A stretch of 51,555 bases of DNA, counting the filler, from Diploschistes diacapsis (Eukaryota): the NCBI GenBank assembly GCA_023645945.1. It is 3 parts of 3 records of this genome, joined end to end, with 100 filler letters (N's around TTAATTAATTAA, not from the genome) between each part and the next. Parts side by side here need not be neighbours in the genome. Positions count along the whole stretch, not along the records: positions 1 to 17,131 come from JALAIB010000467.1; 2 more parts are not named here. One strand, 5' to 3'. Position 1 is the stretch's first letter. Each line of letters starts with the position of its first letter. The notes beneath the pieces are model-generated. The model searched no databases and was not told the DNA's origin. It saw nothing but the letters and a program-made list of their open reading frames with translations. This document shows, piece by piece, positions 2,481-26,851 of this stretch. Both the position numbers and the translations under genes were made by a program.

Positions 2481-3177
2481 ACGCAACAGCCCGGTACAAG
2501 TGTCTAGCGTAGTCCAATCGCTAGCTTGTTCTTTGTATCCAGCAGCTTTTTGGCTGACAGTACAGGAAGACACTAGCGCTCTTACCTTACCCCACCAGAT
2601 GCTAGAAGTCAGAAAGTGCTGGGACTGAAATCTTCTCAATTCCTCATAACACTTTATTGAATTCCCAGAGAAAGTTGAATCCTGTCTAGTCTTCAACTTC
2701 ACACCTTTTGCTCCAATCATGGAAGTCAGGTTCAAACATGACCGTATAGGTGCATATTCAGAGCTTAGAGCGGTGAAGATGAGCAATATATATGCAGTCA
2801 AAGCACAATGTGACTTCGCAATGAAACTTGAGCGAGCTCATAGGTTCCCTACATAAGGTATGGCACAAGAAAATATGGCTCTCACAGTAACAAATGCACG
2901 TACCCAGGAACAGGTCATCAGAGACGATTAATGTTGCTTGTTATGATTCTTGCTACGGTAAGTCAAGCGTGTTTTTATTTCTTGCTGGGCTATCTCAGAG
3001 CTTGAAGCTCTTTTGCTGGATACCAAGGCTCATTCTCGTCCTATCTGGCGTATCTCCTTTCTTAAACAGTATCGAGTTCTACTGCAAGTTCTTTGTAGAT
3101 CTTCCCAACCTCGGAGTTCTTTCATATTTTCTCGAGTGCTCCAGTACCTCTGCTTCTCTCTAGTACGTCCAATCAAT

Positions 3178-6100
3178 ATGGCAGCAAAGCTACCGCAGAA
3201 TGCGCTGCTTTACCTTGCACATCATATCTTCCTCCCTCCCCTACTTCCTCAAAAAGATGACTACAAGGACGAATGCGAGAGCGCACTTCTACTCGCTGTT
3301 GAAAATTCCGCTGAGAAGTTCCGGTCCTACGCGGGTGAAGATACAGACCGCTTCGTTAAGCGGGTCGAGATGATAGTCAACAACTTTAGAACCCTTCAAG
3401 ATGGTACGGGAGGCATCAGCGAGAATAGACTTAGGAAAGCTTTTGAGACCGTGATGAGCCATGGTCTGTATTTTCATGCGGTCCGTATGTTCGAATTGCT
3501 AAATGGTCCATCAGATACATTTCTGACATTGTACCTCCGGGCTCAAAATGCTGGAATCCTTGTCAGCAAGTCACAGGACGCCATGTTGTTTCAGGCCTTC
3601 GAACTCTCCCCGAACAATGCATCGGCAATGTGCACCAAGGGACGCCTTCTGCGAATGTTTCCAGCCTCAGCAATTGCTGTGGACTCAGATAGTTGCCGTG
3701 AAGACGGCTTTTTCTCAGCATTGTCGCTGGCTATCGCCAAGCTTAGCAACCGAGCCGCTCCTGGCATGCAGCCAGTGGTCCACAAAGCTGGCCAAATGCA
3801 TCAGGAAATTCGAGACACCAGCAGTCCAGCAATGGTGACCGAATATCTTATGAGTTTCTTGAGAGCTGCTGGAAAGCCAAAGGAGGTTCCTGTGATATGG
3901 AAACATACCCGCGAAGAGGTCTTGTGGTTAGATTGCCTAAAGCCCTGGCACAGGTCACCCATGTGGCTTCTGGTTCGAGTATCCTTGCAGCTTCAATGTT
4001 CTGGTTTAGTATCACCGACGGAACACGACCATCGATTGTACAAAATATTCATGATATTCCTCATGGCCAATATCTTACAATTATGCCAAAAATCCGCATT
4101 TCCGTGTGATCTTCTTCACGCAATGTCTGCCAAAATTTTGCGACGTTTAGCCAAACTTGATCCTGATTTGAGAAAGGCCTGGGCTCCATTCGTTAAGAAT
4201 GTGGTCACAGATACGCATTCCACGATCAGCAAGCAGTGGCAGCAGATAGTTGAGATGGATGCTGCACGGTTAGATTTCTCCAGTTTACGGTTACTCAAGA
4301 TACATGAGGACCTCGGCCACAATCTTACAGAGCTTGACCGCTATATTTCGGGCATCTCTGAACGGCATAAATCTTCGGCATCTAAGATCTTCGAGCCGAA
4401 GACTCCGTTACCGAGGCACTCATCGAAAGACTTACCAGAGTTTTCCGGCAACTGCTCGGAAGACTATCTCGTCTATGAGCTGGCTGCCTTCGAGAATTGG
4501 GTTGAATTGAACCTTAACATTTGGGTTGAACGTCACATCGATGACCCTAGAACCTCAGGCTTATTGAAGCGAGCCATGCAAAGCTACTACAACTGCGCAG
4601 TCCAGTGCTACGCCGGCCTTCCTGAGGCATACTCTATTATGATCCTAACTCTCATGGAGCTCTGGGTTGCCTGTGACAGATCAGCTTGCAGCATACACCA
4701 ATTGCTCCTTGCGTATAGTCCAGAGATTTCTGTCCCACTCCTTCAATCACTGCTGCTACCAATGTGGAATCAGATGCAGAGGCTCGCCACCATCGAAAGG
4801 TATATTGGCAAGCGCCAGCGCAGAGCAGCCGATGACTCTGTCTTCCGCAGTATCAAAAGTCAGAACGCATTTCCCGTGAAATACTTTGACCAATCGCCTG
4901 TCCATCAGACTTTATTTTCCAATATTCAGCAACTGGCGCGCTCGAAGAGAGATGCGAAATGTCGAGAGCTGGCATCCAAAAAGGAGCAACACTCAAACCT
5001 CGTTCGGCGTCACGATCGCATGGCTTGTGAGTAAGAGCAATTCTGGCAAAATGGAATCTACCGGACCCGTCACAGCGTTAGCTGTGAGAAGTGTTCCTTG
5101 GAAAGTCAAGCCAAATCCATGTCCATTGAGATTTTCGAAGAGCCACTCTCCAACCACCCATTGGTGGCCAAGACTACTGTGTTCGAGCTTATGTTGCCAG
5201 CAGCTTTCAGCTCCTGGCGGGATGCTACTGTCTTCCTCCTACTCACTGTCTTTCAAAGCCAGTACACTTCTCAAGAGACACCGAAAAACGGGTACGTTCT
5301 TCAGGAATATGAAGGACTTTCGGAGTTTTTCGTCACAGCTACCGGGGACACGCAGCGTGTCGTTCTTCTTTCAGACGTCAAGCCTCATGTGCATACGCAT
5401 CGCAGACGGAAGTTGGTGGCCACAGCGACCGAGGATGAGGTTTGCCTAAATAATGGCCTACATCTACAGTACTATGACGATGCAAAAGCCGCCTTCATAA
5501 CCACATTTGAAAACACAGACGAGATACTGAATCTCTGTACATACAAAGTATCCGAATGCTCTTCAATCCAGCAATTTATGGCTAGACCACACTACATGCC
5601 AAATGGATTGCCACCCAATCAAGTCATGGCAAGTCAATGGGACTGCCCGCTTGACGTTTCCCTGGATGAGTTCAGAGCATTCTGTGCTCTTACTTTAGGA
5701 TGCAGAATTCAGTGGTTAAATTTGCTAAGGCAGCTGGCAATGCCTTCAATAGACCTCACGAAGCCCAGAACCCATATGCTGATCAATCAAGTCATGCACC
5801 AGGCTGGGCCACCTCATGAGCTGAGTGCCAGGCGAGCGGGACACGACCTATTGAGCAGCGACGAATTCGTTTTCATCTTTCTTGCTCATCTTCGAACTGC
5901 TCTTCACAGAGTGGGCGAGAATTGGGATACTGTCCTGACATTAGCTTCCTTGATACGTATGGCAACAAGAATACTTTCTTTAAACCAAACGCCTAGCGTG
6001 CAGGAGGAATGTGTGGCTTATCTTGCACAGGTTCGAGTGGTTGCCTTCAGCTTTGTCCAAGTCCTAGCCGACAAGGCAAACCATAGTGTGGACAACATCC

Positions 6101-9100
6101 GTAAACATGGAATCAGTTCAAAGCTGGTTGATGCCGCACTCGTGTGCGTGAGCACTTTCGATGTGGAAGAGAACACGCTAGGTGACATCCTTGCTTCCCC
6201 GGACCAAGCGACTATTCTCATCCAAACCTCCATTACCATACAAGAGTTCTTGCGCTCAATCTCGGGCAAACGTGAAAAGCTTCAGGAGGTAATGTTAGAG
6301 AAGTGGAAGAAAGTATCGTACCGCGCCCTACCTCTCCTCACTAGGGAAATAGTTTGGAGAAATAACATTTGTCTCGATGTAGCCGTTCGAGCTACTTGGT
6401 CCGCCTACGAAGCTGGAGTCGAATGGCAGGCTATGGCAAGCCCATACGAACAGTGGCTATGGAGTGAAACGGTACCGAGCAATAACACCAATCAGATGAT
6501 CATACATTTCAATCTGTTGACTGCCGAGCTTCTTGTGGATGGCGTTCCTTTAGCGCGATTACCGCAAGAATATGAGGCTCACCCCCGATATCAGACACTT
6601 TTCGGTCGTTCCATATTGGAGACTATGCCTTCTAGACTACCGGGAATGCGCTTCTCCGCCAAAAGAAAGTATGCCGGTTACACAGTCCACTTTGGTGCTG
6701 AAACGCTTTCAGATTCAAACACTCTACAACGCGTCAATCTGCTGGTTCAGTCGTATAAAAACGGTATCAAATATGATCTTCTCCCGTTGGACCTTTTCCA
6801 GGATACGGTTCCAATGGCGTTTATCAAGGACTTTGTGCACTGGTACAATCACACTGATGACACTGTCGAATTTCGGCCAATCTCGGATCCCTGGTCGTCT
6901 TCCTCCTCGAACTGGCATTTCAAAAGAGCTGGATCTTCGTGGCTTCTCAAAAAGGGAAGCACATCGCTGTTCAGCTTCCCAGGTGAGAGTGCTAAGATGT
7001 TCTCCAAATACGTCTCTGCCCTCGAAGATCGCTCATACGTCCACGTGTCTCTACGAAGCGAACATAACCTTGTAGAAATCGAATTACCTCGCTTGAACCT
7101 GGCGTTCGAGTACAGACCGGGCACGTCTGCGATTATATCGAGGCAGTATCGCGACATGTCAATTGACGCTTCTCAAAATGCAGGCACATTGGTCGGATTG
7201 GAAACCAAACTCCTCTTGACATCCGTCAACAGCGGTAATACAAGGCGGCGTGTGCTCATACCCGAGGGAGAAGTTGAGTATCAGAAGAGTTCCGGACATG
7301 TGACAGCAAGGATTGTGAAAAGCCCAACAACCCGTGTCCACGCGTATACTGTAGATGTCATGCTTGGCCAGCTAAGAGATAATGGGAGTCTACGAAGCAA
7401 ACTGCTCCTGTGCTATCTGCACGGCCTTTCGGCTTTTTTGTTTGCCAGATCCTCTTACTCGACGCACAGGCACTGAGCAAGCGCTGACCATCCTAGATTC
7501 TGCGTCAGTAAAGTCTTTCAAAGTCTTGACAAAAGGTGATCTTGCGATACTGGAACTGATCGCAAAATTAACCCCTAGAAGGATGTACTACCCACAAAAC
7601 GAACGTGAGATGCAGACCATTCTCTGGGATACAAAGCTGAGCTTTTTGAGCCAACACAGCAGCTTCCATAAGCTGGTTCAAGGTATCTTTGAACAGGCCC
7701 GTGATAAAAAGATATTCTATCCTAGCGAATTCGTGGAGCCACCGTTTCTTATGGACGTTGATCCTGATCTGCTAGAACGTGAAGCGATTCGGTCAGCCGC
7801 ATTCCGCGTTTGTGGCTTCGGCGCCGCACAATTCCTTCGAAAATGTGATACGATGTATTCTGCTCGTGACCGCGGTCAGAAGAGTGAAAGGGCTGTTCGT
7901 GCCTTGAATGCCGCAACAACTATCTTGGAAAGAAAGCCAATGTTACGTTGGAAGCCAGAAGCAGGACTTGAAGCCACCATCTGGAGCTTCTTCGTAGAAT
8001 GCAATGTCATCCAAGGAAGAGACGAGCCCTTTACAGAAATGAATCCACAGTTCGATTTCGTCTGGCTTGATGAGCTATCCAGTAATATTCGTCTTTCCTG
8101 GTGTCAACTGCATTCCCATTTCATCAACGCAACAAGGTTCAACAGATTTCAGATTGCAGCTTGGCTATCTACCATGGCCTTTGCAACCTCTGCAAGAATG
8201 GATATAATTCAGATTTTGGCCTCCTTCTATAATACAAGTGAGATTCGTCATGTGGACATCCCATCATATCAATCTTTCATACTAGCGGAGGGGATCCGGC
8301 CTGTCCATGCGGAACTGACCGAGATTGTCGAATCTAACCGGAGACCTTTCATGGACTGTCCTGAATCAAGGCTCCCACAGCATGCCGGTGAAAGTCAGTG
8401 GACTGCTTCGAACCGAAGACGCACCTGTTTGAAGCTAATCAGAACGGCGCAGTGAAAGACTTTGTTGCTAAACTCAATTCCAGCTGGCTTTGTAGGGTAC
8501 CAGAAAAACCTCAAGGGCGTGACTTCGTCACATATCTCGAGGTAGATGCGGCTATGGTAGAGGCTAGATCTAAATTTGAGATGTGGTTCAGAAACAGTCG
8601 TTTCAAAATCTACATTGATCGGATAGCCAAGGCCTTGATGGGACAGGGGGTAGAACCTCTCCAAAGCTCTCCAAATGTTCTTGCTCTATCAGTATACGTC
8701 GAGCAGGTGCGCAAACCGTTCGTTAGTATTGACGATATTTTCACAGGTCCTGCTCCTACGATTCAGTTCAGTGCACCTGCCACTCTCAAATCTCCCGTGC
8801 AGACTGGGAACCCAGACGCTGCTGTTGGTGTCCGACTTGGAGGACTGCTTTCTGAATTGGAAGTCCATGCTGCTTCAACGTACGAAAAGCGTTACGCAAA
8901 AGATTTGAGGGAGAGTCTGGCAGCCCTTCAGAGTACCTCGATTGGATATCCTCCTCAAACCGAAATTAAGGGAACTGAGAGAACCCTAGCCGACTACGTG
9001 TATGATTGGTGCAATTACGTCGAACGACTGTATGATACCATGCGCAATTCCGTCAAGGGGGACGCTCAGTCCCTTCGTGCATTGAGTTTCGCCACTTGTC

Positions 9101-12100
9101 ATGCTCCTAGAGTCTCCCCCATACTCTTCCTCCAGCAGTTGACTCGCAAACGCTGGCAGGCGCTTGCACTTGCTTGGAGAGAAAGTATAATAAGCTATGG
9201 CGTTGCAATTACTGAGCTACAGCGAGCACAACGACTAGTCGCTCACGCTAATAATTTCATTGATTTGGCCTTGGAATTGGCCAATCCAGGACATCAGAAT
9301 TGGCGCCCATATGAATTCCCTGAATCCCTTCTCTTTGAGATCGAGAGCGGAGTTATGATACGGTCAGGACAGGAGGAGATTGCCGGCCAGATGAGAAATC
9401 CCACCACGAATGCCAATGCCGTAATGCAGCTGAACATGGGCGAAGGCAAATCCACTGTTATCGTACCGATAGTGGCGATCGCGCTGGCCAACAACTCCCA
9501 GTTGGTACGTGTCATTGTTGCGAAACCGCAATCGAAGCAGATGTTTCAAATTCTAGCTTCTAAACTAGGAGGTCTAGTAGATCGGCAAATCTATCATTTG
9601 CCTTTCTCGCGTTCCATCAAAATGGATGAAAGCAAGATCAATGCGATCCACAAACTCTGCAATGAATGTATGACGAGCGGAGGTATTCTACTCATCCAAC
9701 CGGAGCATATTCTGTCTTTCAAGTTAATGACCCTTGATCGTCTTATGTCGGCCAATGCAGCAGTTGGAGCCTCGCTGCTCAGGACTCAACAATTCTTAGA
9801 TAATCGCTCCCGAGATGTCATTGACGAAAGTGACGAGAACTTTGCTGTCAGATTTGAACTTGTCTATACCATGGGTGAGCAGACCCATTTGCAGTTCAGT
9901 CCAGAACGGTGGATCATCGCACAGAAAGTTCTTCAACTTTTTCGTGATATCGCAATTGATCTGGCGCGTTGTTCTAATGATCTTGTAGAGCTTAGTAGTT
10001 GCAAGGAGGGCGAGTTCCCAAGAATTAGAATCCTTCGCTCAGATGCCTATAATGATATTATTAAACGACTAGCGAAACAAGTTTGCGGAATGACATTCCC
10101 TGGCTGTCCGATTGCTTATCAACCAGAGGGAGTCAGAGGCGCCATCTTCACATATCTTACCGAAGCCAACCTTGATAACTCCCAGATCACTCAGGTAGAA
10201 GGTGCTAACTTTTGGACCGACGTGACCAAGGGTCCACTGTTGCTGCTACGTGGTCTCCTCGCCGGCGGGATTTTGACCTTCGCTTTTGGGTCGAAGAGGT
10301 GGAGGGTCAACTATGGCCTGGATCCATCTAGGCTTCCAGCGACAAAACTTGCGGTGCCGTTCCGAGCAAAAGACAATCCTACGCAGCGTTCAGAGTTCAG
10401 CCATCCGGACGTCTCGATCGTACTCACCTTGATGAGCTATTACTACGGTGGACTTGAAGACGAAGAGCTGTTTACAGCTTTCAATCACCTTCTGAAGTCT
10501 GACCAGGCTCAGGTAGAGTACGATGAATGGACCCGCAGGGCTGGAGACATGCCTGAATCGTTCCACCAGCTAGTCGGTGTCAATATCGAGGATCATGCGC
10601 AATGCATTGAACAGGTATTCCCTCACCTTCGGTACTCACAGGGAGCAATCAACTATTTCCTCTCCCACATTGTTCTCCCCAAGGAGATGAAAGAATTCCC
10701 GTATAAGATATCTGCCTCAGGCTGGGACATAGGTCAGAGTAAGACCAATGTCACTACTGGTTTCAGCGGTACCAACGATTCTCGCTATGTTCTTCCGCTA
10801 AGTATCAATCATCTCGATTTGCCAGCTCAGAAGCACACCAATGCATTGGTATTGGATTATCTTCTCCAGCCGAATAATGCGGTAAAGATCGTACCGCCAC
10901 GTCGTCGCCCTACAGACACAGATGTAGACATTATTCTAGCCACCGTCGACACAATAGATCCACCGCCCCGAGTGCTTCTAGACGTAGGCGCCCAGATCCT
11001 CGAGTTGGGCAATCATGCTTTTGCGGAAAAGTGGCTCAAGTCCAAGACTAACGAGGAGGAGATCAGGGCCGCAGTCTTCTTTGATGACAAGGATGAACTT
11101 TCTGTCTTGGACCGGGCTGGCTACATCGAACCTTTGCAGACGTCACCATTTGCCATACAGCTTGACGTTTGCCTTGTGTTTCTCGATGAAGCGCATACTC
11201 GAGGAACCGACTTGAAGCTGCCTCAAGATTATCGCGCGGCTGTAACCTTAGGGTCAAACTTAACCAAAGATAAACTGGTTCAAGGTAGGTGAAGACAAGA
11301 ACTTAGATTACTATTAAGCTAACAAGCCCTCAGCTTGCATGAGAATGCGAAGACTTGGAAAGGGTCAGTCTGTAATCTTCTGTGTCCCAGAAGAAATTAG
11401 GATGAAGATCCTTCGGTGCAGGGGGCAGAACGACGATTCGCCTATAGAGTTGGTAGACGTGCTAAGATGGACTATTTCTGAAACATGCAATGATTTGCGA
11501 CGGAGCATGCCTCTCTGGGCAACTCAAGGACAGCGCTTTGAGAAACAGCGGCTTTTATGGAGCTCGTCTGAAACGGGGATGTCAAGAGAGCACGCAGAAA
11601 GGTTCCTTGAAGAAGAAGCGCGGACCTTGGAGCGTCGGTATTCACCCCATCTCGCAAACCCAGTGCACCAAGCTTCTAGCCAGGTCGCTCAAACCGAGAA
11701 TATTAGTCGAATCAAGGAACGCTGCGCAGAGTTTGGAAGTCTCGACCTGAATGCGGCCACGCTGCAGGAGGAACAAGAGCGAGAGTTGTCTCCGGAGATG
11801 GAACAAGAACGTCAGCTGGAGAGACCACCTCCCGCAGATGCCGAACCACACCGTGTGCACCCTCATGTGATGAGTTTGGCTTCGAGGGGCGTGCTTGTCG
11901 AGCGCTCACCGGCCTTCATACCTGCTTTTCAAGCACTTAGATCTACCAGTGCGGCATCACACCTTGATGTCTCTCAGTTTCCGACAGATGTCCTTGTCAC
12001 CCTAGACTTTACGAAAACCGTCAAGGCTTCGGGCAGAGACTACGTTTCTGACAGCTATGAACAGCCTGTGCAATGGGTGATGACGATGGCGGACCAGACG

Positions 12101-12589
12101 TCCTCCACCATAGAAAGACTGTTTATCATCAGTCCGTTCGAGGCGGAAGAACTCTTGCCGACGATACAGAGCCACAAAAAAGTCACGCTACACATTTATT
12201 CACCAGGTATCAATTCAAGGTTTCGCTCCCTGAGCGCGTTGGATCTGTTTACCATCGGCAAGCCCTTCGACCCGTCCAGCGTTCCAAAACGCCTGACCTT
12301 GCAACTAGACCTGTTCGCGGGCCAACTGTACCTGGATTCATATGATAATTATAAGGAGCTATGCAGCCTTCTAAATTTAGCCTGGGCTCCTAGCAAGGGC
12401 AACATGAAGATATCCGCAGATGGCTTTATCACCCCAGGGCCTGGAGAAAGAGGATTCAGAAATAGTCCGGTCAAGTTTCTGAGGACGCTGGTGACGAAGA
12501 TTCGGCGGAACTGTCAGAGCATCGAGAAGACGCACATGGGCAGGATCTTGGATGGGGGTATGCTGGGAGAAGAGGATTTCGGTCGTTGA
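3178..12589 (+). pseudogene. Giant fungal DUF6606/DUF3638/DUF3645 protein (often auto-annotated 'ubiquitinyl hydrolase 1'), SF2/SecA-like P-loop ATPase, ~3,100 codons, disrupted in this assembly
   Basis: N-terminal YLAHHIFLPPLLPQKDD, RAQNAG, PWHRSPMWL; LPDPLTRRTGTEQAL; QLNMGEGKS Walker A (9427-9453); DVIDESD Walker B (~9814-9834); LAVPFRAKDNPTQRSEFSHPDV; LDEAHTRGTDLKLP; KLVQ|ACMRMRRLG. Introns 3464-3514 and 11285-11333. Lesions: in-frame TAA 5032-5034, +1 T in T6 run 7434-7439, -1 nt at ~8421. Family call is confident; pseudogene versus sequencing error is not settled. Confidence 0.8.
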
Positions 12590-14993
12590 GCTATTGCTCA
12601 AGGTGTGGCCGACTGATTGTCTTTACAAAGAGCATGCATATATGTAAGAAATAGGATAGTTCGGTTGACAGGTTGGAAAAGTGTCTCTATTCGAGCGGAA
12701 AAGCAGCTGTTACAGCTTGTCAAGGAGCAATTGAATTTCGGGTTGTCTGCTCTATGTTTCCCCCCAAAGAAACCAGTTTTCTCCTAACAATCTTTCCTCT
12801 ATTGCCGTATTGAACATCATGTGGGTGAATGTGGTACAATAGGCTGGGTTGGAGCTTCCTCGACAGCGCACAATAATAGATGCCCAACGTTGATGTTTGC
12901 CGGCAAGGGATGATGGATCTCACCTTACAGTCGCCCACGACATGCAAGCTACAGCTCAGTCTTTAACGAAGACGACTAACGCCACCTATGAGGTAGTAAG
13001 GCGGCCATGCCTCCTAATACATGTTCTTTAAATGCGAGCTCGGCTAACCTCAATATAGTGCACAGTGATTAGAAAACCATAGCCACCTTTTGAGTGGACT
13101 GGGTATGGCATCGTCTGCCCGAATTGAGATGAGGGTTTCCCATCACAACATGGGCTGGATTGTGCTTCATATTTCTTCAGTCTTCTTTGTTTGATCTTGT
13201 TGATCGGCCACATGGACACGTTGGAAATTCAGATTCCGTATCTATTTCCCTTTTAAAATCGACGGAGACTTCACGAGTTCTTGAAGATGCATTTCCCAAG
13301 AAAAATGCCCTTTGAAATGAGCCAAGCTATCGATGGCGTACATTTTGCACCGTCTCTTGTTTCAGCAAAGCTTCAGGCATTCCATTCGAGGATTCCATTG
13401 CGGGCTTGCTTATTCCTTCCGTTCAATAGGCGAAGAGAGAGAGAGACATATCACAGCATGTCGGATAGCTCTCTAGCAAGCGGACCAATATCTAAAGCTC
13501 TCTTCATAGAACTCGTGATCGCTCTTGTACTGCAGGATTGTGTTCACTCCGCACTTCAAACTCTACTGCACCGGTCTGCTTCCTTGTACTAGGCAGTCCG
13601 GGTCAAGATGTCCGCCTAATTCATGGCCACCTTTGCATCTTCTCCTGTTCGTTGTATCCGTCATGCCAGGTCGATTAGATCTCCACGCCCACTATCCAAT
13701 GCTATACGAGGGTAGTCACTCAAACATCGCTATCAACCATACAAGGGCCTTATGGCCCCTACGAGAGATATGGAGCCCGTTATGCCAGTGACTGGTAACA
13801 TCTACCCCTTCCAGCGCAAAGATAGCAACGACCGACAGCCCGTCCCCAAAGCGAAGCTCCATGCCACACTTAAACCATGATATAAGAATGGCTGGCTTTA
13901 ACGGTACGCTCGAGACGCAGCCGCAAGTATTTGTCGTAGCGGCAAGGTACCGCCCAAAGAACCTTCTCTCCAGCTGCCAACCAAGGCCCGGCCACGCGCA
14001 ACAGCAACACAGCTTGCGAGCGTCGCCACCTAAATAAGCTCGGGCGTTCCCCAACGTATCTCCTGTGTCGTGAACTCTATTCAAGGAGGGGTCTAACTCG
14101 CGACCCATATGCAGAGCCAGACTCCAATGTCCACGAGCTATTCATTTTACCCTCGAGATGCTTACGATAGTTGGGCTTTGACTGGCTCGATCTCCACGCC
14201 CAGAGAAACCGCGGGCGCCGGGACCCCGAGCATTCTGTCGAGGGCTAAAGCAAGGATCGCCCAGTGGTGGCGAGGGAGTCCCTCACGGCGACGGAAAGTT
14301 TTCGCCTGAGACACGAAACCCAGGATGGCAAGCTAGCCACGCTAACGAAGAAGAAGAAGAAGAAGCGTATGTGCATAAGTTTGGCTATGATCGCGGTACC
14401 GATAAGCAGCCGGCTACCGATGCTTCCAGAGGAGGAGGAAGCTGCACTTCTATCCTGTTCCATATCAGGATGGCGGGGTGCGATATAGGGGGCGGCGGCA
14501 GAGGCAGATATAGAGGCGTTCCACGAAGAGCTGTACACATGCGATGTGGAACTTTGAGAATCTCTAGGAGTAGGTGGCGGTATCTTGGGGAGGATGAAGC
14601 AGGATGACCTGCTGTGTGGTTGAGGAGCGGCAGGTGTTCGCGGGTTTGTATCGAGAAGAGAAGTAGCACAACAGGCTCCATACAACGATGGCACTCAAAT
14701 TACGAAGAGAAAGCTGCTATGAAGTAATAAGTAGATATGAAGCATTTCCACGAGTCATATCAAATAAAGCTAGATTTTGGTAATTCAAGCAAGCATGCAA
14801 ATATAAGGCAAAAAAAAAAAGCTAATGGCATCTTAGTACAAGCGCAGAGGCTGGCGTACATGAATGATGCATAGCACCGCTACCATTATCATTGAACTGA
14901 TTCAGGCCGCTTCCTCTCTTCGTGTGAACACACCGTCTCCACTTCAGAGGTCCCATGGCCTGATGAGTAGCCAAGGGAACTTGCCGCGCTGAA

Positions 14994-15618
14994 TCATTGC
15001 GAGAATTTGAACCCCTGATATTTCCATATACTCGTGAATTTTATCGCTACCCCTGACGTGTCTTTCCAGCGACAAGACCTTGCGTCCATTTGGTTCCAAA
15101 GCGCATTGGCTCTTTCTAGATTTGCCCCATAATCTCCTTGATGCGCAAACGGCCCAGTCTTATGAAGTACGGGGTTGAAAAAGCGTTGGTCCTCAACCTT
15201 GTCCGGCATCAGTCTACTAGGCGGTACACCTGGAGAAACAATAGAACAGTGCTCGTCTCTTTCATGATTGCAGTAATCGTAGTTGTGGCATCTCTTTTGA
15301 TCCAGGTCATTCATCCTGTAGCGAGGAGCGCGCCGGCACCTTCCGCGATTATCTTGATATACAGCTGTCCAACCGCAGAACCATTGCTGCGTTTTAGGAT
15401 TCTCGCGGTGTTTTGAAAACCATTCAATGTAAGGAAGTACCTTTTTCCATTGTTCTTCCTCTTGTGATCTGGTTTCAAACTCGCCTGACTTATCCTTGAG
15501 ATACACAAGGCTAGTGCCAGATTGAACCGGCCGCTTGCGTAGCCAGCCGTTCTGGCCCGGATTTGGTTATTGTGATGACACGGCATGAACTCGATCATTA
15601 TGGCTTGTGATCGTCAGC
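14994..15618 (-). CDS. Hypothetical protein or gene relic (Trp/Cys-rich, 170+ aa)
   Basis: 170-aa ORF with protein-like content (VLPYIEWF, QWFCGWTAVYQDNRGRC). The frame extends upstream through a single TAA at 15567-15569 to a possible TAG acceptor near 15619. No family recognised. Confidence 0.35.
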
Positions 15619-17131
15619 CTATGAGGTTGATAGCTTGAAGGATCGTAGATGATTCTCATAAAAGGGCATAGACATACAGTCTTTAAGATTGGAAATAGTG
15701 TCCTTAGTTACTAGTTGATTGCTAGCAAGTAAGACACAATAAGTTGATGAAGCTTAATGACACAAAGTGCAAAGAATTGTTTGCATGAGGAGCATGTAGA
15801 AAAAAGGAAGAACTGGGGAATAATGACGCCTAAATATTCGAACTGACTCATGATGGAGCGTCTTGTATGAGTTGATACTCCTCTGTAAAAGCCAATAGAA
15901 TGACCAAAGAACAAGAGCAATATCTTAATGAGAACCGTCATCAGTACGACTCAAGGCCGGAGAACTGAACTCGGAACACATACCAAACTGATAACGCAGA
16001 CTTGCGACTCAGAGGATAGAGCCAAACAAATCCTTGTCCAGCGGGTTAGTTGAAATAGGGACGCAAGAGCGTGACTCCCGTCAGACCATACTTTTTCCAA
16101 GCCTTTCCATGATAAGCAGAAACATACACAGGCATAATCAAATCGTAGCCCAGAAAAAGGGGGACAAATCCAGGCAATATCTTGCTGCTGTGCATCGCAA
16201 TAGCGGGTATTTGATAAGACCACTTGAGTGCGGAACAAGCATCGATAAACGGATCCAAAAGTAGGAGGTGTAGGTAAGAGAACACGCCTGGCTAACTCGA
16301 ACATCGACGTTCAGTAACTATGTGGAAATTAATGGATATGCAAGGTAAGGAAAGCTTTCTGAATATCATTTTCGCATCTTCGCCCTATTGACATATCTAG
16401 CCACGGTGAAGGGCTTATTTCATAAACATATTCAGTATAGCAAAGTCATGTGAAACCTCGTCTGATATATGATCCCAAGGCAACTTCGATCGAACAGAAG
16501 CAAACGTAGCTCAGGCCATCCTTTTTGTGACATCTTGAAGATAGAATCGCCTGACAACTGAGCTTTGGCGCTAACCATCGTTAATCAGTGGGCCGATTGA
16601 ATTGACTGAACCTGACTAGAAGTCCCATGATGTTGGGGTCTGGCAGATAGGTTTGATATTGCGATTCTGTGAAGTCTTCTTATAAGGTAAGCATAGATCT
16701 CGGGATTGGGATTTTCCGGTTCCCGAACTCCGATCCCTGTGAGATGCGAGATCGACGACGTCAGAGGGGAGCTCCTATTGTGACAGTTTGGCTGATGCCT
16801 ACCAGCCAGCTCTTAAGAAAAGGATATATGTATCCTTAATTGCTCGAACTCTCTCTCAAGCTGCGGCATGAAGCTGAGCCCTTCTTCTTCTTCTTCCCAA
16901 CGTTCCCTCTGCTCTCGTACCCATTGAAGAGTACAAGCTCCATCTCCGCCGTCCAATCTCCTGTTCCTCGGGCGATTTTGATACTCCCCGCAACCGCAAT
17001 TTCACACCCACGACCCACACCCACAAGCCCTTCCACCTTTTCAAACACCCCCCCCAATACGCCCTCTCAATCCCGCTCAAAAGCCATCCCAGAGAGACTC
17101 CCAACATGTCCGCCTTCGCCCGCCTCCTCCC

Positions 17132-17231
17132 NNNNNNNNNNNNNNNNNNNNNNNNNNNNNNNNNNNNNNNNNNNNTTAATTAATTAANNNNNNNNNNNNN
17201 NNNNNNNNNNNNNNNNNNNNNNNNNNNNNNN
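17132..17231. other. Artificial contig-joining linker
   Basis: Exactly 44 N + TTAATTAATTAA (stops in all six frames) + 44 N = 100 bp; identical to 34347-34446. Confidence 0.97.
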
Positions 17232-18202
17232 GGTGTAGATGGTCGGTACGATGGAGAGGTAGTATTGGAAACGGTTGAAGCGATCGGAGGTGCGGGCGAG
17301 GGTGTGGTCGAGGGGGTTGAGAAGGGAGGGGTAGAGGGGACCGAAGGAGAGCTCGGAGATGAGGTGGGTGAAGTTGAACGCTTTCCGACGAGTTAGCAGT
17401 TGCACCGCCGATACTTTGAGAGGCAGGACTTTGGGGAAATCGTACCCTGATGGCTCAAATGCTCTCCAAACTCCATATACCCATGCCCCCTGGCCGTAAT
17501 GTGGAAGTCCCCTTGCACTTTATTACCTTCCAAGCTCCCATATATCCGGCAGCTATCCGGCGCCATCCCCCTCTTCATTTTCGGCGACTTTGGAAACCTC
17601 CGCTTCGTTTTTCTCACCTCCCCCAGCACATGCCCCACGTGTGTGTCCTCCGCCTCCGTCCGCTCCCTGCTGTTCCTATCCCGCTTGTTGCTCTGGTGGT
17701 GTATCCGTGCGGGATTCACCCACAGGTTCCAAATCGTCGGCTCACGCGTCAGCATATCGCCCGCCAGAATCCGGTCGCCAGAGGCATCTTGCACATTGAC
17801 GTGGAGGTCGGCGCATTGCATGGAAACGACGATGTCGAGGTTTATTTGCAAGGTGTGTGAGATGCCCTTTTCGACGGAGAACTGCTGAGTTTCCGCGCCC
17901 CTGTACCAGAGACGAAACTCGGAGACGGCGAGGAGGCAGGAGAGGCCGATCAGAATGATGGTCGCATAGCCGCCACCGGTCGTGCGCCGGGTGAAGGTAG
18001 GTTTTGTTTTGGCTGCGCATAACGGTTAGCTGTAGCATTGGGAGCTTTGATGAACCATTGCTGCATTGCAGAGAAACTATGGAGAACTAATGGGCGTTCT
18101 ATGGATCAAGCACTTACGGAAAGCATCAAAACTGCGAAACCCCCCAGAGGGTTTCTCGCCAAAGGCGGACTCATCAAGTCCTTGTGTAGCAAAGCCGTTC
18201 AT
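17232..18202 (-). CDS. ERV41: ER-derived COPII vesicle protein Erv41 (ERGIC2-like), 3' end lost at the gap
   Basis: MNGFATQGLDESAFGEK..FRSFDAFP|KTKPTF, a TM helix, LQINLDIVVSMQCADLHVNVQDASGDRILAG, SCRIYGSLEGNKVQGDFHITARGHGY, FNFTHLISELSFGPLYPSLLNPLD, FQYYLSIVPTIY. Introns 18117-18013 and ~17445-17381. Confidence 0.93.
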
Positions 18203-18671: not shown

Positions 18672-20878
18672 CTACAAGTGGTCCAAATATTCGGGTCCAG
18701 ACCTCCACCAAACAAGTGCTTCTGTCCAGAGAGCCGGGTAGTCGTCAACTGAAGCTCTATAAGAACCGATACCGCCTGGGGACTTTGCGTAGCCGTCAGC
18801 CGTGTTTTGCCTCTTACCGGATACCTTGTATTCTCCCCAAAAGTTATTGTCCGCTTCTGCTCTTTCTTGATTTGAGTGATAGCAGGCTGAGGCTACAGCT
18901 AGGCTTGCTTCTCCTATTTGAACTTTCATCTTTGGCCCGTAATCCATACTTGGGTCGAAACTCATCAGGACTATTGGCGAGTTCTTACTCGTGCAAGAAC
19001 CGAAAACGACACAGCGCTCATCAGCCACAGCACGGAAGGAGGTTAGCGTGCGTGGCTGCAGTAAGCGCTGCAGTTCTACGGGGCACGTGGATGATTGTTG
19101 AGGCCAGAGCTTGATCTCAGACCCATCTTGTCCGGTTCGTAGGTGAAGATTGACGCTATTCTCCGTGGCAGAATCGCAAGCCTCGGGATCGTTGACGATC
19201 TCGAGAAACGTACCTGTTGCGGTGTCGTACGTACGAAATGGGGTATTTGCAAGCGAAAAGGTCTTGGTTTGATGGGATAAGAGTGGAGAAGGGCCCGCTT
19301 GAGCTGGGGCGACTTGGTACTCGCAATGACAGAAGCGTTGCGAATGAGCCCAAGGAGCAAGCAGGTGATCTGGCAGTACTTTGAGGATAGTGCCAACATG
19401 TTCCGTTTCGTCATCTGATAGGTCACCATCGTCCTTGGTTTGGTTCAAGTTTTCCCTTATGATCTCTACCTCTAGGGCTTGGTCTTCGGCAACAAAAGTG
19501 TACTCCGCTGAACTTTCAACTTCGAAACTCATCGTATAGAAAGAGCGCAGCGCACTTTCGTGTAGTCGCGCTAGCCATTCTTTCCTTGATTCCGCGATTA
19601 TGTATTGTCCTCTTTCATCCCTACATAGTGAGAGATTTGTCCAGTGGTCGTGGATGGGTCCTTCATTCTGCCTCCGCCTGTGAAATCGCCAGTATCTTGG
19701 ATTGCCCCCAGGCTTGTCAAGCGTAAAACGATAACCACCGTAGTAATTTACAGGGTCAAGTCCTTCCGGATTAGGTGTGATATCGCTGGTCATTACCCAG
19801 AAGTAGTTGTCAATAATCTCCAGGATGACTGTGACACCAATCTCTGTCCTTGACTCGAAAGATGGCACTTTGCAGAACCACTTCAATTTCGGATGTGAGG
19901 AACTTGAATCATGAAGGCTCAAAGTATAGAAATCCCAGTCGCGACTGCCATTTGGCTCATCTTCCCGTTTGCCTACAAGTAAATATTTGGAGTTGTTTCT
20001 AAAAATCATTTCCTTCCCATAAGGCATACTCAAAGTCGCCAGAACCCTTTGCTGCTTAGACACCCCTGCTTTGGTACTTAAAACCATGATTTTTCGGGTT
20101 TGCTGTACCGAGACGCTGATTATGAGTACATCCTCTTGGAAGTGTAAAAGTTTTATACGAGCCTGAGAGCCCATTTTCTGGGTCCATGGGCGTAGTATGA
20201 CCTGGAAGTTGAATACCACCTCCTTTTCACGAACATCATGGATATGCAGAACGTGCACGAGACCGCCGCGCAGGTAGCAGAGGACACCATTTGCGTAAAG
20301 AAAATCAGTCCCACAGCCGATTGCAACGACACAATAAGGGCTTCCGCTTGATAACGCTCGTCGCCTTAAGTGAATATTCGCAATAGCCTTTTGATAAGTC
20401 AATTGCCCTTGCCGGGCAAGTCTTGCTTCCCTTGAATTGGGAATGGCTCTCTGTTATTCAATTAGCCAATGTTCCCCCCACTCTCTCTACGAACCGATCT
20501 GTGAGACTGTGGTTACGCCCAGGTCCAGAACGATCGATCGGCGAGTGTGCAGATGAATACAAGATCTCATAGCGAGTATCAAGGGCAGCAAACGGCAGCC
20601 GAGGATGCGGACCGATCAATGGTCATGCTGGGAGCCATCCGCACTTGGAAAACGTGCAGCAAAGCCGAAAACATCCCAGTATTGGTGTGTACAATTGCGG
20701 ACGGGTCAATCATTTGTTTCTCACTTACCTCAATAACATCCCGGCAGTACCTCCCATTCCCAAGCAACTGCAGACACAATTCACGGCTTGAAAGAGCAAA
20801 CGCAGCGAAGTCTGATATGTCGAGATAAGAAGCAATTGTTCTCAGAAGTTCCAACGAAAGAGATAAGACATGAAGCAT
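18672..20878 (-). CDS. F-box domain protein (2 exons)
   Basis: Exon 1 VLSLSLELLRTIASYLDISDFAAFALSSREL is an F-box signature. Intron 20728-20451 (GTAAGT..GCTAAT..CAG) joins it in frame to the 576-aa ORF, which contains RRRQNEGPIHDHWTNLSL and DERCVVF motifs typical of a Pezizomycotina F-box family. Confidence 0.85.
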
Positions 20879-24873: not shown

Positions 24874-26851
24874 TCACACTGCTAGATGGTGACCATGCAG
24901 CCCCACCGCCTTCAGAATCTTCCCAAAGTTCGGCGTCCCGAAGCCCGTCACGGCATCCCACCCCTTCTCAGCCGGGAAGCCATTGGTGTTGCATCCCGCT
25001 GAGCTGCCGCTCAGGATATCCGTGAAAGCCTTGTATCCGGTCTTGTACAGCCACGGATTCAGGAACCCAAGCGGCTTCTTGCCCGCCGCGATCAGCGCAT
25101 CGTTCACAAGGGTGAACACGCCCGTCGCCGTCGGTGCCGAGCACGAGGTGCCGTCCAGGATAGCGATGCTGCCGTTCCAGATCGTGATGAAGCGCTGGCC
25201 CTGCGCCGCGATGTCCGGGTACGCGCGCCCGCTGGCGTTGTACAGGCCCTTGTCGAGGTCGCCGATGACGTCCAGGTAGCCCTGCACGGCGGCATCCTGG
25301 TAGGCGGGGCGGGCAAAGAGGTTGCTGAAGCCCGCGCCCGAGGTGAAGGTGGAGCCGTCGGCGAAGGTGTCGAAGGCGGCGACTTCCGGGTTAAAGTTGC
25401 GCGTCGCGCCGACGGCCGTCACGTACGGGCAGGCGGCGGGGAAGGCGGGCAGGAAGTGGCTCGAGTTCTTGCCGTCGTTGGAGAAGCAGTCGCCGTCTGG
25501 GCCGACGCCGCTGTCGCCCGAGGAAAAGATGAGCGAGATGCCGCGGGCGCCGAGCTGGGCGAAGCCGTTGCAGGCCGTCTGGGCGTAGGATGCTGGAACG
25601 GACTGCTCATCGTCGCCGTAAGAGGTGCTGATTGTTTGGGGCAGGGAGCCGTCGGGCTGGGCGAGGACGTACTGGAGCCAGGTTACGTACGGCTCATTGG
25701 TATCCGTCGGGGTGCCGGCGTCTGGAACGAAGGGCGGTGAGCCGCCGGTTGTGAAAGCGGTCAGGGGAGTGGGGTAGGAGATGCCGAGGATGGTTTCGAC
25801 GTCGAGGTTGCCTTCCTCGTCGACGCCGTCTTCGAGCTGTGTTGCGTTGTCGGGGGTTTGCTGGTCTGAGCCTCCGTTGATGACGACGAACTGGAATTCG
25901 TAGGCGGCGGCTGCCGCATCGGGGCGATAGTCTTTCAGGAAGATGCTAGTGTCGGAGCGGTTGTTTGACTCGCCAAGGAAATCGTTCAATCCTACACGGT
26001 TCTTTCCGGGCACCTGAGGCTTGTAATTGATAGTGCCGTACAGTGTCCGTAGACAAGTTGGCGTCACTCCGGTGTTGCTACACACTGCAGATACGTTGCC
26101 TGCTGGATTGTGTGGTGGTCGTGGATGATGGTAGTCTGTATCGATCTTGTACGGCTTGAAATTCACTGCGTTTGGTCTGGTGCGCATGAAAGAGTTGGTT
26201 GGCTGGATCGTTGTCACGTGCGAATGTAAAGACTCTGGCAAGGACCATTCAAGCGTCCGCATAAAACGAGTGCCATCTTCGTGCTTGAAAGTGGAGTATT
26301 CTGTGTCCAGTAGACGCTCAGCAGTCGCGATGTCGAGCCTAACATTGACCCAATCCTTGGCCGAGCTGTAGCCGCAGGCATGGCGTGGGATACCGTTCTG
26401 CTCAAGCCAAGCATGGACGGCTTCCAAGGTCTCATCCTTGGGCTTGACAAGCTCATTCACTTCGTGGGCAGTCAAGTGATTGCCGTATCGTTCATGGCCA
26501 GGATCGGAGACTGGACTGATGGTCAGTAAAGGTCTCTAGCATTAAGGACGTCTAGTTGATGACGAGATGTAAGGCAATTGTTCAATGGGTAGGGTAAGGA
26601 AATCATGAGAGGCTCCAGTAAGGGATCCACCCACCCTCATAGAGCTGCTTCTCGAGCTCCTCAAAATTACTTTGCTTCAATCCAATGCTGAAGACCATGC
26701 TGCTGTCTTGGGGAGCAGAGGATATCCGAGACCATTTTCGCGGTAGCGGTATTCTCTCCTTGACTGCATATCCAGAGCGCCGATGCAGTGGTGAGCCGAC
26801 AGCGGCGTCAAGGGCGATGGCCAGAGTCAAAAGATTAAGAGAGTAACGCAT
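24874..26851 (-). CDS. Secreted tripeptidyl-peptidase / sedolisin (peptidase S53) with pro-domain
   Basis: Signal peptide MRYSLNLLTLAIALDAAVG; pro-kumamolisin region LYE|VSDPGHERYGNHLT (intron 26634-26511); catalytic EGNLD, SSGDSG, GTSCSAP; Ca-binding GWDAVTGFGTP. Confidence 0.96.

What the first reader, a model, noticed from the sequence alone, without database searches (positions are those of the whole stretch)
9400..11370. Giant 'DUF3638/DUF3645' protein carries an ordered SecA-like SF2 ATPase motif set
Seen: QLNMGEGKS, DVIDESD, TTGFSGT, HTRGTDLKL and Q|ACMRMRRLG in that order. Established: SecA motifs are EMxTGEGKT (I), IVDEVD (II), GMTGT (III), GRGTDIxL (V) and QLRGRSGRQG (VI), with a long insertion between II and III; here ~300 aa including DUF3645 separates II and III. 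Inference: this is a ~3,100-aa eukaryotic SecA-like translocase/unfoldase motor, not the deubiquitinase it is usually labelled. No signal peptide is evident and it sits in an accessory, decaying neighbourhood, which would fit a cytosolic defence or non-self response machine. I know of no experimental characterisation of the family.
Basis: partly seen in the sequence, partly recalled or inferred. Interest (0 to 1): 0.72.

Follow-up and report, generated by a model that had tools for sequence, protein, structure and literature searches.

The report
Broken giant gene with SecA-like motor
The motifs are real: this stretch encodes the helicase-type ATP motor of a huge, never-studied fungal protein whose closest solved look-alike is the bacterial protein-export motor SecA, but this particular copy is a recently broken gene.

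Summary
Observation confirmed. All five motif strings lie at 9427-11359 in the stated order and are nearly invariant in 95 homologues.

They belong to one gene of about 3,100 codons (3178-12589, +) of the DUF6606/DUF3638/DUF3645 family.

- **This copy is broken.** It has a TAA stop at 5032 and two one-base frameshifts (7434-7439, 8423). A related strain's contigs lack all three.
- **Neighbours** are housekeeping genes, not accessory DNA.
- **The deubiquitinase label** is neither backed nor excluded.

The scan reported this family before on other DNA.

The parts
3178..12589 (+). Whole gene of about 3,100 codons (DUF6606/DUF3638/DUF3645 giant protein). Here it is a pseudogene with one intron, one in-frame stop and two frameshifts.
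   Evidence: tblastn of three full-length relatives (3,051-3,138 aa) covers 3175-12580 in frames 1, 2, 1, 2. The ATG is at 3178 and the stop at 12587-12589. The C-terminus aligns to the ends of 40+ relatives.
3214..4080 (+). N-terminal DUF6606 domain
   Evidence: Pfam PF20255, E 6.1e-86. No Cys or His is conserved at 85% or more in 58 full-length relatives.
5032..5034 (+). In-frame TAA stop. This is a nonsense change, not an intron.
   Evidence: A relative aligns through it on both sides. Contigs of runs X2 and X3 read C at 5032, which gives CAA.
5380..5853 (+). Conserved His...Asn-x5-Gln-x2-Cys...His set: KPHVHTH at 5380-5400, PPNQVMASQWDCPLD at 5611-5655, RRAGHDLL at 5830-5853. It is a candidate thiol-enzyme site, untested.
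   Evidence: In 58 full-length relatives (P0128 numbering): H709 86%, C792 90%, H858 100%; N783 is nearly invariant and Q789 is in the majority consensus. Coordinates. All are retained in the window.
7434..7439 (+). T6 run carrying one extra T: frameshift from frame 1 to frame 2
   Evidence: In run X2 one letter is left out at 7434.
8423..8424 (+). One-base deletion: frameshift from frame 2 back to frame 1
   Evidence: Run X2 has an extra G after 8423, and an X3 contig end agrees.
9292..9960 (+). RecA-like domain 1 (= Pfam DUF3638). Q-type motif 9358-9384, motif I/Walker A 9427-9453, motif II/DESD 9814-9834.
   Evidence: PF12340, E 2.4e-99. Coordinates. Fold.
9844..10725 (+). 294-residue, mostly helical insertion domain between motifs II and III. 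It contains the basic DUF3645 core at 10321-10428 (KRWRVNYG at 10294-10317).
10726..11284 (+). RecA-like domain 2, first exon part. Motif III 10753-10773, motif V 11194-11220.
11285..11333 (+). 49-nt spliceosomal intron that splits motif VI
   Evidence: GTAGGT...GCTAAC...CAG. Relatives read LVQACMRMR across it.
11334..11449 (+). End of RecA-like domain 2, with motif VI (A)CMRMRRLG at 11334-11359
   Evidence: The end point is approximate, taken by homology to P0098 residues 692-730.
11450..12586 (+). Long helix after the motor (about 11450-11569, by homology to helix 731-770 of the model), then a conserved C-terminal region of about 340 residues with unknown fold relations
   Evidence: Secondary structure of the model. 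SecA alignments run on to model residues 811-846. The C-terminus aligns with relatives at 38-55% identity. This region was not searched on its own.

Best explanation
Window 9292-11449 encodes the ATP motor of a giant cytosolic protein of about 3,100 residues from the DUF6606/DUF3638/DUF3645 family, in a fungus from a lichen metagenome.

**Shown**
- The motor is an SF2 (DEAD-like) pair of RecA-like domains.
- Domain 1 (= DUF3638) carries a Q-type motif, the Walker A motif GEGKS and DESD.
- Domain 2, which no Pfam model covers, carries SGT, RGTD and the arginine motif Q-x3-R-x-R-K.
- A 294-residue helical domain with no solved look-alike is inserted between motifs II and III, the site where SecA carries its preprotein clamp.
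- A 40-residue helix follows domain 2.
- SecA is the nearest solved structure.
- This copy is a recent pseudogene, with one nonsense change and two single-base frameshifts. A strain about 98% identical lacks all three.

**Inferred**
- ATP binds in the cleft between the two RecA domains.
- Closing the cleft moves the insertion domain against the trailing helix, so the module works as an ATP-driven clamp on an extended polymer.
- I put a polypeptide substrate (SecA-style gripping or unfolding that serves the rest of the giant protein) at about 40%. I put a nucleic-acid substrate at about 35%, and a pure conformational switch at about 25%.

It is not a member of the SecA family.
For: - **Motifs.** Present, ordered and at least 90% conserved in 95 homologues.
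- **Family.** Pfam DUF3638 E 4.4e-99, DUF3645 1e-17, DUF6606 6.1e-86. There are 4,306 representatives at 50% identity with E up to 0.001.
- **Model.** pLDDT 86.6, pTM 0.83, with alternating strand-helix domains.
- **Foldseek against PDB.** SecA 1tf2 is top at E 1.6e-8, TM 0.39-0.45 on the target; MDA5 has 1.6e-7 and TM about 0.31.
- **Foldseek-independent scan of 48,161 chains.** SecA 17.8, SecA2 17.0 and the SecA motor 15.6 are ranks 1-3; FANCM follows at 15.2.
- **Motif variants shared with SecA only** among the sets built here: GEGK, G-x-S/T-G-T, RGTD(I/L)xL. The II-to-III spacing is 315 aa, against 164 in SecA, 31 in DEAD-box and 26 in RecG.
- **Giant viruses.** Klosneuvirus-type DUF3638 proteins share the fold over 755-1,174 alignment columns, E 1e-27 to 2e-13.
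- **Charge.** The motor parts are acidic to neutral (pI 4.9-6.5) apart from the DUF3645 core at pI 10.4. This is weak evidence.
- **Pseudogene.**. X2 contigs differ at 5032 (C), 7434 (one T fewer) and 8423 (extra G); X3 agrees at 5032 and 8423. An independent assembly of the probable source run (X1, word depth 120) reproduces the window exactly.
Against: - Profile-profile comparison gives SecA 0.3% for the whole region, 0.9% for RecA1 and 0.6% for RecA2. The best is RecG RecA1 at 21.8%. The controls SecA-DEAD-box, SecA-RecG and DEAD-box-RecG give 95.6, 94.6 and 99.5%.
- The only sub-threshold Pfam match is DEAD (E 0.0069, in 1 of 4 proteins scanned), not SecA_DEAD.
- Motif Ia (V-x-K-P-Q-x-x-Q) and the Q-P-E-H segment look more like DEAD-box PTRELA and TPGR than like SecA (the TPGR comparison is recalled, not computed).
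- The full motor model is of a homologue (P0098, 55% identical to the window's piece), not of the window's own spliced product.
- The family alignments are fungal only.
- No activity, substrate or partner is known.
- Contigs, not raw reads, support the lesions, and X2's frame was checked only at the three lesion sites.
Confidence: 0.6

Rival explanations
1. It is an ordinary nucleic-acid-dependent SF2 translocase or sensor, in the manner of RIG-I/MDA5, FANCM or DEAD-box proteins. The resemblance to SecA is a by-product of both having large insertions and trailing helices.
For: - The motor-only comparison is a tie: Dbp5 15.8, eIF4A 15.7, MDA5 15.4, RIG-I 15.3, FANCM 15.2, against the SecA motor at 15.5-15.6.
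- DEAD is the only weak Pfam match.
- The best profile-profile signal is with RecG.
- The DUF3645 core is a conserved basic segment of pI 10.4.
- Nearly all SF2 families act on nucleic acids (established knowledge).
Against: - Whole-chain SecA outranks every nucleic-acid enzyme in three searches.
- Motifs I, III and V carry the SecA-type variants.
- Pfam finds no nucleic-acid-binding accessory domain anywhere in the 3,100 residues.
- RecA1, RecA2 and the insertion are acidic to neutral.
Confidence: 0.3
2. The database label is right in substance. The protein is a ubiquitin-like-protein hydrolase or other thiol enzyme, and the ATPase is its accessory engine.
For: - UniRef calls many relatives 'ubiquitinyl hydrolase 1', and so do two giant-virus entries.
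- A His...Asn...Gln-x2-Cys...His set is conserved in 58 full-length relatives and kept in the window at 5380-5853.
- Earlier scan notes on bacterial and viral relatives report a protease-like head. These are leads, not tested here.
Against: - No peptidase family in Pfam, NCBIfam or PADLOC matches any piece.
- A profile of the whole protein finds no solved peptidase. The only two hits at E up to 10 are noise.
- The label also sits on 1,135-1,355-residue fragments that start just before DUF3638 and so lack the Cys/His region. It therefore looks rule-derived.
- The language-model atlas gave nothing for the DUF6606 domain or the Cys/His region (scores 0.79 or less).
Confidence: 0.15
3. The three lesions are assembly or sequencing errors, and the gene is intact in this organism.
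For: One lesion lies in a T6 homopolymer. The window comes from a metagenome assembly.
Against: A separate assembly (Logan contig) of the probable source run reproduces all 3,701 bases with 0 differences at word depth 120. One lesion is a substitution and another lies outside any homopolymer.
Confidence: 0.1

Closest known systems
SecA / SecA2 preprotein translocase ATPase (e.g. PDB 2ibm, 1m6n, 2fsf, 4uaq, 5eul)
   Same: - Two RecA-like domains.
- GEGK(T/S) Walker A, DE-x-D, G-x-(T/S)-G-T motif III and RGTD(I/L)xL motif V.
- A large domain inserted between motifs II and III.
- A long helix straight after the second RecA domain.
   Different: - 9-13% identity.
- No Pfam SecA_DEAD, SecA_PP_bind or SecA_SW match, and no profile-profile signal.
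- The insertion is twice as long, helical, and not recognisably the PPXD.
- Motif VI reads Q-A-C-M-R-M-R-K, not Q-L-R-G-R-x-G-R.
- The motor is embedded at residues about 2,020-2,750 of a 3,100-residue eukaryotic protein.
- No link to SecY or to signal peptides.
DEAD-box helicases and RIG-I-like / FANCM SF2 translocases (e.g. Dbp5 3fht, eIF4A 9avr, MDA5 5jc7, RIG-I 5f9f, FANCM 9el5)
   Same: - Q-type motif, DE-x-D, and arginine-bearing motif VI.
- Weak Pfam DEAD match at E 0.0069.
   Different: - Motif III is SGT, not SAT.
- 315 rather than about 30 residues between motifs II and III.
- No detectable RNA- or DNA-binding accessory domains.
- Lower whole-chain scores than SecA.
Giant DUF6606-DUF3638-DUF3645 proteins of Pezizomycotina (e.g. 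P0128, P0132, P0127) and DUF3638 proteins of Klosneuvirus-type giant viruses (Fadolivirus A0A7D3V923, Hokovirus, Hyperionvirus, Harvfovirus)
   Same: - Fungal relatives are colinear over the whole length: 36-49% identity in tblastn segments, and up to 65% in the motor.
- Viral proteins share the motor plus the C-terminal architecture, E 1e-27 to 2e-13.
- All are uncharacterised.
   Different: - This copy carries a stop and two frameshifts.
- Its nearest listed relative is only 65% identical in the motor.

Membership tests
SF2 (DEAD-like) ATPase superfamily | Two tandem RecA-like alpha/beta domains | tested here: met
   [not shown]
SF2 (DEAD-like) ATPase superfamily | Ordered motifs I, II, III, V and VI, conserved among homologues | tested here: met
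SF2 (DEAD-like) ATPase superfamily | ATP hydrolysis that depends on the Walker A lysine | not testable with these tools
   Needs purified protein from an intact allele
SecA family | Sequence membership (Pfam SecA_DEAD PF07517, SecA_PP_bind, SecA_SW; profile similarity) | tested here: not met
   No SecA model matches 4 proteins even at E up to 10. hhalign probability is 0.3-0.9% for SecA, while controls among known families reach 94.6-99.5%.
SecA family | Motor fold closest to SecA among solved structures | tested here: met
   SecA ranks first. The motor-only rows tie with DEAD-box and FANCM (difference under 1 Z).
SecA family | Preprotein cross-linking domain inserted between motifs II and III | tested here: inconclusive
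   [not shown]
SecA family | Helical scaffold, helical wing and two-helix finger after the motor | tested here: inconclusive
   A 40-residue helix follows RecA2. Full-length SecA aligns 60-90 more residues than its motor alone. No residue-level alignment was available.
SecA family | Works with SecYEG on signal-peptide-bearing preproteins | not testable with these tools
   -
DUF6606/DUF3638/DUF3645 giant proteins | The three Pfam families above their cut-offs, colinear with relatives of about 3,100 aa | tested here: met
DUF6606/DUF3638/DUF3645 giant proteins | Uninterrupted reading frame | tested here: not met
   Stop at 5032-5034 and frameshifts at 7434-7439 and 8423
Deubiquitinases (OTU, USP, UCH, MINDY and other thiol DUBs) | A recognisable peptidase domain | tested here: not met
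   No peptidase family matches in Pfam at E up to 0.01 for five pieces covering the gene, in Pfam at E up to 10 for the motor and C-terminal part only, or in NCBIfam and PADLOC. A PDB profile search of the whole protein finds none.
Deubiquitinases (OTU, USP, UCH, MINDY and other thiol DUBs) | Conserved catalytic Cys and His (plus Asp or Asn) | tested here: inconclusive
   None in DUF6606. A conserved H709/N783/Q789/C792/H858 set exists in the middle region, but its fold was not modelled.

The most novel reading that the evidence does not exclude
The DUF3638 proteins would be a eukaryotic and giant-virus sister lineage of the SecA motor. The SecA-style ATP-driven clamp would have been re-used in the cytosol to grip and unfold or thread target proteins towards a thiol-hydrolase site in the same 3,100-residue polypeptide. 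That would make a self-contained protein-processing machine used in conflicts with viruses, symbionts or non-self. Their expansion, lineage-specific presence and polymorphism would fit this; these are mentioned in passing in PMC5423893, PMC6237848 and a 2026 clubroot preprint (passages seen).
Probability: 0.15. Interest if true: 0.8.

Novelty: new variant of a known kind. Interest (0 to 1): 0.42.

Why it matters
The family is very large: 4,306 clusters at 50% identity. It occurs in fungi and in giant viruses. Papers also mention it in passing in microsporidia and in the clubroot protist *Plasmodiophora*.

In the library searched, no paper says what it does. Databases label many members as deubiquitinase on no evidence that could be traced here.

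Showing that its conserved core is a complete SF2 ATP motor gives concrete, cheap experiments. The motor has SecA-type traits and an insertion domain of unknown fold.

If the substrate proved to be protein, this would be the first SecA-like motor working outside membrane translocation.

This particular copy teaches less, because it is a strain-specific pseudogene. Public data hold a near-identical allele without the three lesions.

Tried and rejected
- **Sequence searches of the PDB** found no SF2 or peptidase match. The window piece gave three noise hits at E 0.2 or more. The profile of A1 gave 0 hits at E up to 10. The profile of the whole protein, A3, gave 2 noise hits.
- **hhalign of the family profile against 19 single E. 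coli SF2 proteins:** all at 8.2% probability or less, so uninformative. The first try timed out.
- **hhalign against family alignments of Bacillota proteins** (29 SecA, 30 DEAD-box, 27 UvrB, 21 RecG, 9 Mfd): no significant match to any. Before alignment I dropped loci whose longest frame fell under a length cut-off: 1 SecA, 3 UvrB.
- **The UvrB II-to-III distance** (275 aa) probably comes from an earlier chance DE-x-D/H. I do not use it.
- **Whole-genome tools:** no genome is held for this window.
- **Scan of 185,579 prokaryote genomes with A1:** one locus, a false positive (an HD-domain protein of a Paraliobacillus). Only two peptide patterns were used, so this says little about bacterial relatives.
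- **Language-model atlas** on the DUF6606 domain and on the Cys/His region: best scores 0.79 and 0.78, below the level of a lead.
- **PADLOC and NCBIfam:** nothing meaningful.
- **An intron at 5027-5081** was considered for the TAA stop, because a GTGAGT/GTAAGA sits there. I rejected it: relatives align through the stretch and sister strains read CAA.
- **Introns at the two frame changes** were rejected, because the relatives' residues run on without a gap.
- **Expression:** no RNA holder was listed for the stretch.
- **X3** has no cover at 7434.
- **Not done, because the fold cap was reached:** models of the Cys/His region, of DUF6606, and of the C-terminal domain on its own.
Full report
**1. 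What is in the sequence**

- Translating 9292-11283 gives QLNMGEGKS (9427-9453), DVIDESD (9814-9834), TTGFSGT (10753-10773) and HTRGTDLKL (11194-11220).
- The frame then ends in ...KDKLVQ, followed by GTAGGT...GCTAAC...CAG. This is a canonical 49-nt fungal intron at 11285-11333.
- After the intron the next exon reads (A)CMRMRRLG.

**2. The gene**

The motifs are part of one very long gene.
- Pfam finds DUF6606 (E 6.1e-86) near the start.
- Three full-length relatives of 3,051-3,138 residues align with the window from 3175 to 12580.
- The C-terminal exon aligns to the very ends of more than 40 relatives.
- The ATG is at 3178 and the stop at 12587-12589.

**3. This copy is broken, and only in this strain**

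The alignment changes frame twice with no gap in the relatives' residues: at about 7437 (frame 1 to 2) and about 8419 (frame 2 to 1). It also runs through a TAA at 5032-5034. None of the three breaks can be an intron.

I laid Logan contigs of three public runs on 4900-8600.
- **X1** is a lichen metagenome and the probable source. It reproduces the window with 0 differences at word depth 120.
- **X2** is an organism about 98% identical. It reads C at 5032 (CAA), has one T fewer in the T6 run at 7434-7439, and has an extra G after 8423.
- **X3** is a rock metagenome. It agrees at 5032 and 8423 and has no cover at 7434.

So the window holds a recently inactivated allele, and sister strains lack all three lesions. 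I checked X2 only at these sites, not its whole frame.

**4. Conservation**

- The family is huge: 4,306 representatives at 50% identity with E up to 0.001. The word-based search scored 7,999 candidates and found 471 with E up to 0.001.
- The best relative is 65% identical in the motor.
- In 95 aligned sequences the residues of motifs I, II, III and V and the Gln of VI are at least 90% conserved.
- In the full-length alignment A-x-M-R-x-R-x-L-G-x-G-Q of motif VI is conserved too.
- A conserved R-x-x-Q lies about 22 residues before motif I, the place of a Q motif.

**5. Fold of the motor**

I therefore modelled P0098, a 1,119-residue relative that starts just before DUF3638 and is 55% identical to the window's piece, with the 95-sequence alignment. 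The model has pLDDT 86.6 and pTM 0.83. It shows:
- two strand-helix domains, at residues about 25-230 and about 495-730;
- a helical region of about 290 residues between them;
- a 40-residue helix (731-770) after them.

Results of the three structure searches:

| Search | SecA results | Best non-SecA results |
|---|---|---|
| Foldseek against PDB | 1tf2 first at E 1.6e-8; target TM 0.39-0.45 | MDA5 1.6e-7; UvrB 2e-6; RIG-I 8e-6 |
| Foldseek-independent scan of 48,161 representative chains | E. coli SecA 17.8; SecA2 17.0; isolated SecA motor 15.6 | FANCM 15.2; DRH-1 14.5; DinG 14.2 |

So the refuting outcome 'no tandem RecA folds' did not occur, and SecA is the nearest solved structure.

**6. 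How specific is the SecA likeness?**

For it:
- I built consensus motifs from proteins fetched here: 29 SecA, 30 DEAD-box, 21 RecG, 27 UvrB and 9 Mfd from 31 Bacillota genomes.

| Feature | DUF3638 family | SecA | Other sets |
|---|---|---|---|
| Motif I | QLNMGEGKSSV | EMKTGEGKTLV | G-[TSy]-GKT |
| Motif III | TGFSGTND | AGMTGTAK | SAT / TAT |
| Motif V | HTRGtDLkLP | AGRGTDIvLG | ARGlD (DEAD-box), REGLD (UvrB) |
| Distance from II to III | 315 aa | 164 aa | 31 (DEAD-box), 26 (RecG) |

Against it:
- Profile-profile comparison gives the family 0.3% against SecA for the whole region, 0.9% for RecA1 and 0.6% for RecA2. The best value anywhere is 21.8%, with RecG's first RecA domain. In the same set-up SecA-DEAD-box, SecA-RecG and DEAD-box-RecG give 95.6, 94.6 and 99.5%.
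- Pfam SecA models do not match at E up to 10. The only weak hit is DEAD (E 0.0069, in 1 of 4 proteins).
- Motif Ia resembles the DEAD-box version more than SecA's.

My reading is that this is a separate, very divergent SF2 branch. It shares several derived-looking traits with SecA but is not a SecA family member.

**7. The deubiquitinase label**

- UniRef names many relatives 'ubiquitinyl hydrolase 1', and two giant-virus entries carry the same name.
- The name also sits on fragments of 1,135-1,355 residues that begin about 100-145 residues before motif I. These contain only the motor and the C-terminal part.
- No peptidase family matches any piece in Pfam, NCBIfam or PADLOC, and a profile of the whole protein finds no solved peptidase.
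- DUF6606 has no Cys or His conserved at 85% or more in 58 full-length relatives.
- The middle region does hold a conserved set: H709, N783, Q789, C792 and H858 in P0128 numbering. In the window these are KPHVHTH, PPNQVMASQWDCPLD and RRAGHDLL at 5380-5853.
- A Cys/His cluster also flanks the stop codon, at 5026-5094.
- Earlier notes of this scan describe a His-Asn-Gln-Cys protease-like head in bacterial and viral relatives. I could confirm only that such residues are conserved in the fungal proteins, not their fold.
- The label is therefore unsupported but not excluded.

**8. Surroundings**

Pfam-matched genes around the giant gene are housekeeping types:
- AHSA1-like (1015-1632, -)
- ERGIC/Erv41-46-like (17393-18025, -)
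- a sedolisin (24874-26535, -)
- a histidine phosphatase (28299-29696)
- Vps23 (30659-31945)
- a bromodomain-BAH protein (36399-38029)
- an Rtf1-like Plus-3 protein (41900-43733)
- a protein kinase (45400-46116, -)
- Spt6 (47850 to the window end)

This is not an accessory neighbourhood. I did not examine 12600-17400 closely.

**9. Distribution and literature**

- Klosneuvirus-type giant viruses carry proteins with the same motor and C-terminal architecture: 9 entries with E 1e-27 to 2e-13, four of them in Hokovirus.
- A pattern scan of prokaryote genomes gave only a false positive.
- Seven papers mention DUF3638 or DUF3645. I opened passages of three:
  - a strain-specific gene list in Aspergillus oryzae (PMC6237848);
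  - an expanded gene family in microsporidia (PMC5423893);
  - a highly polymorphic candidate effector in the clubroot pathogen (bioRxiv 10.64898/2026.10.14.759018).
- None of the three characterises the protein.
- Searches for the Pfam and InterPro accession numbers found 0 papers.
- A 2012 survey (PMC3482391, passage seen) lists 'SecA-like helicase-related domains' among effector domains of the amoeba symbiont Amoebophilus. I could not tell whether these are DUF3638.

**10. Mechanism and verdict**

Shown:
- A complete, conserved SF2 motor, with an insertion of unknown fold at SecA's clamp site and a trailing long helix.
- A strain-specific pseudogene.

Inferred:
- ATP-driven closing of the two RecA domains moves the insertion against the helix, forming a clamp on an extended polymer.
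- I favour a protein substrate slightly (about 40%) over nucleic acid (about 35%). The reasons are the SecA-type motif variants, the whole-chain ranking, the absence of any nucleic-acid-binding domain, and the acidic-to-neutral motor parts (pI 4.9-6.5; only the DUF3645 core is basic at pI 10.4). This evidence is weak.

The finding is a sound observation about a catalogued but unstudied family. The same reading was reached earlier in this scan on other genomes. This copy is a dead allele.

Noticed in passing
window 5380-5853: Far upstream of the motor, His, Asn-x5-Gln-x2-Cys and His are conserved in 58 full-length relatives and kept here (KPHVHTH, PPNQVMASQWDCPLD, RRAGHDLL). This may be the thiol-enzyme site behind the family's hydrolase label.
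   Followed up: partly
window 5008-5094: A Cys/His cluster (RHDRMAC ... HSVSCEKC; C585, H602, C606, C609 in relatives) looks like a small zinc-binding knuckle. The strain-specific TAA stop lies inside it.
   Followed up: partly
window 10285-10434: The DUF3645 core (KRWRVNYG...RAKD.P..RSEFSHPD) is the most conserved part of the insertion domain. It is basic (pI 10.4) in an otherwise acidic module, and it is modelled as an irregular segment with lower confidence.
   Followed up: partly
window 1-51555: Pfam-matched genes on both sides of the giant gene are housekeeping types: AHSA1, ERGIC, sedolisin, histidine phosphatase, Vps23, bromodomain-BAH, Rtf1-like, kinase and Spt6 (which runs off the window end at 47850-51554).
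   Followed up: partly
window 18672-20453 (-): A 593-residue open frame with no Pfam match at E up to 0.001.
   Followed up: no
window 42001-44000: GC 0.58 with a strong AT skew (0.239) in the Rtf1-like gene region. It probably reflects a biased, charged coding stretch.
   Followed up: no
BFVD hits of model m932287bfd7d2: Hokovirus HKV1 alone has four DUF3638 paralogues. Two viral entries carry the same 'ubiquitinyl hydrolase 1' name as the fungal fragments.
   Followed up: no
L003 / L012 (E. coli K-12, 3826089-3826292): The Pfam SecA_DEAD model also hits E. coli RecG above its cut-off (28.4 bits). This is a reminder that SecA and RecG motors are close in sequence space.
   Followed up: no
L028:2329-3633: The only prokaryote locus returned for the family alignment is an HD-domain phosphohydrolase of a Paraliobacillus. 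It is a chance pattern match.
   Followed up: yes
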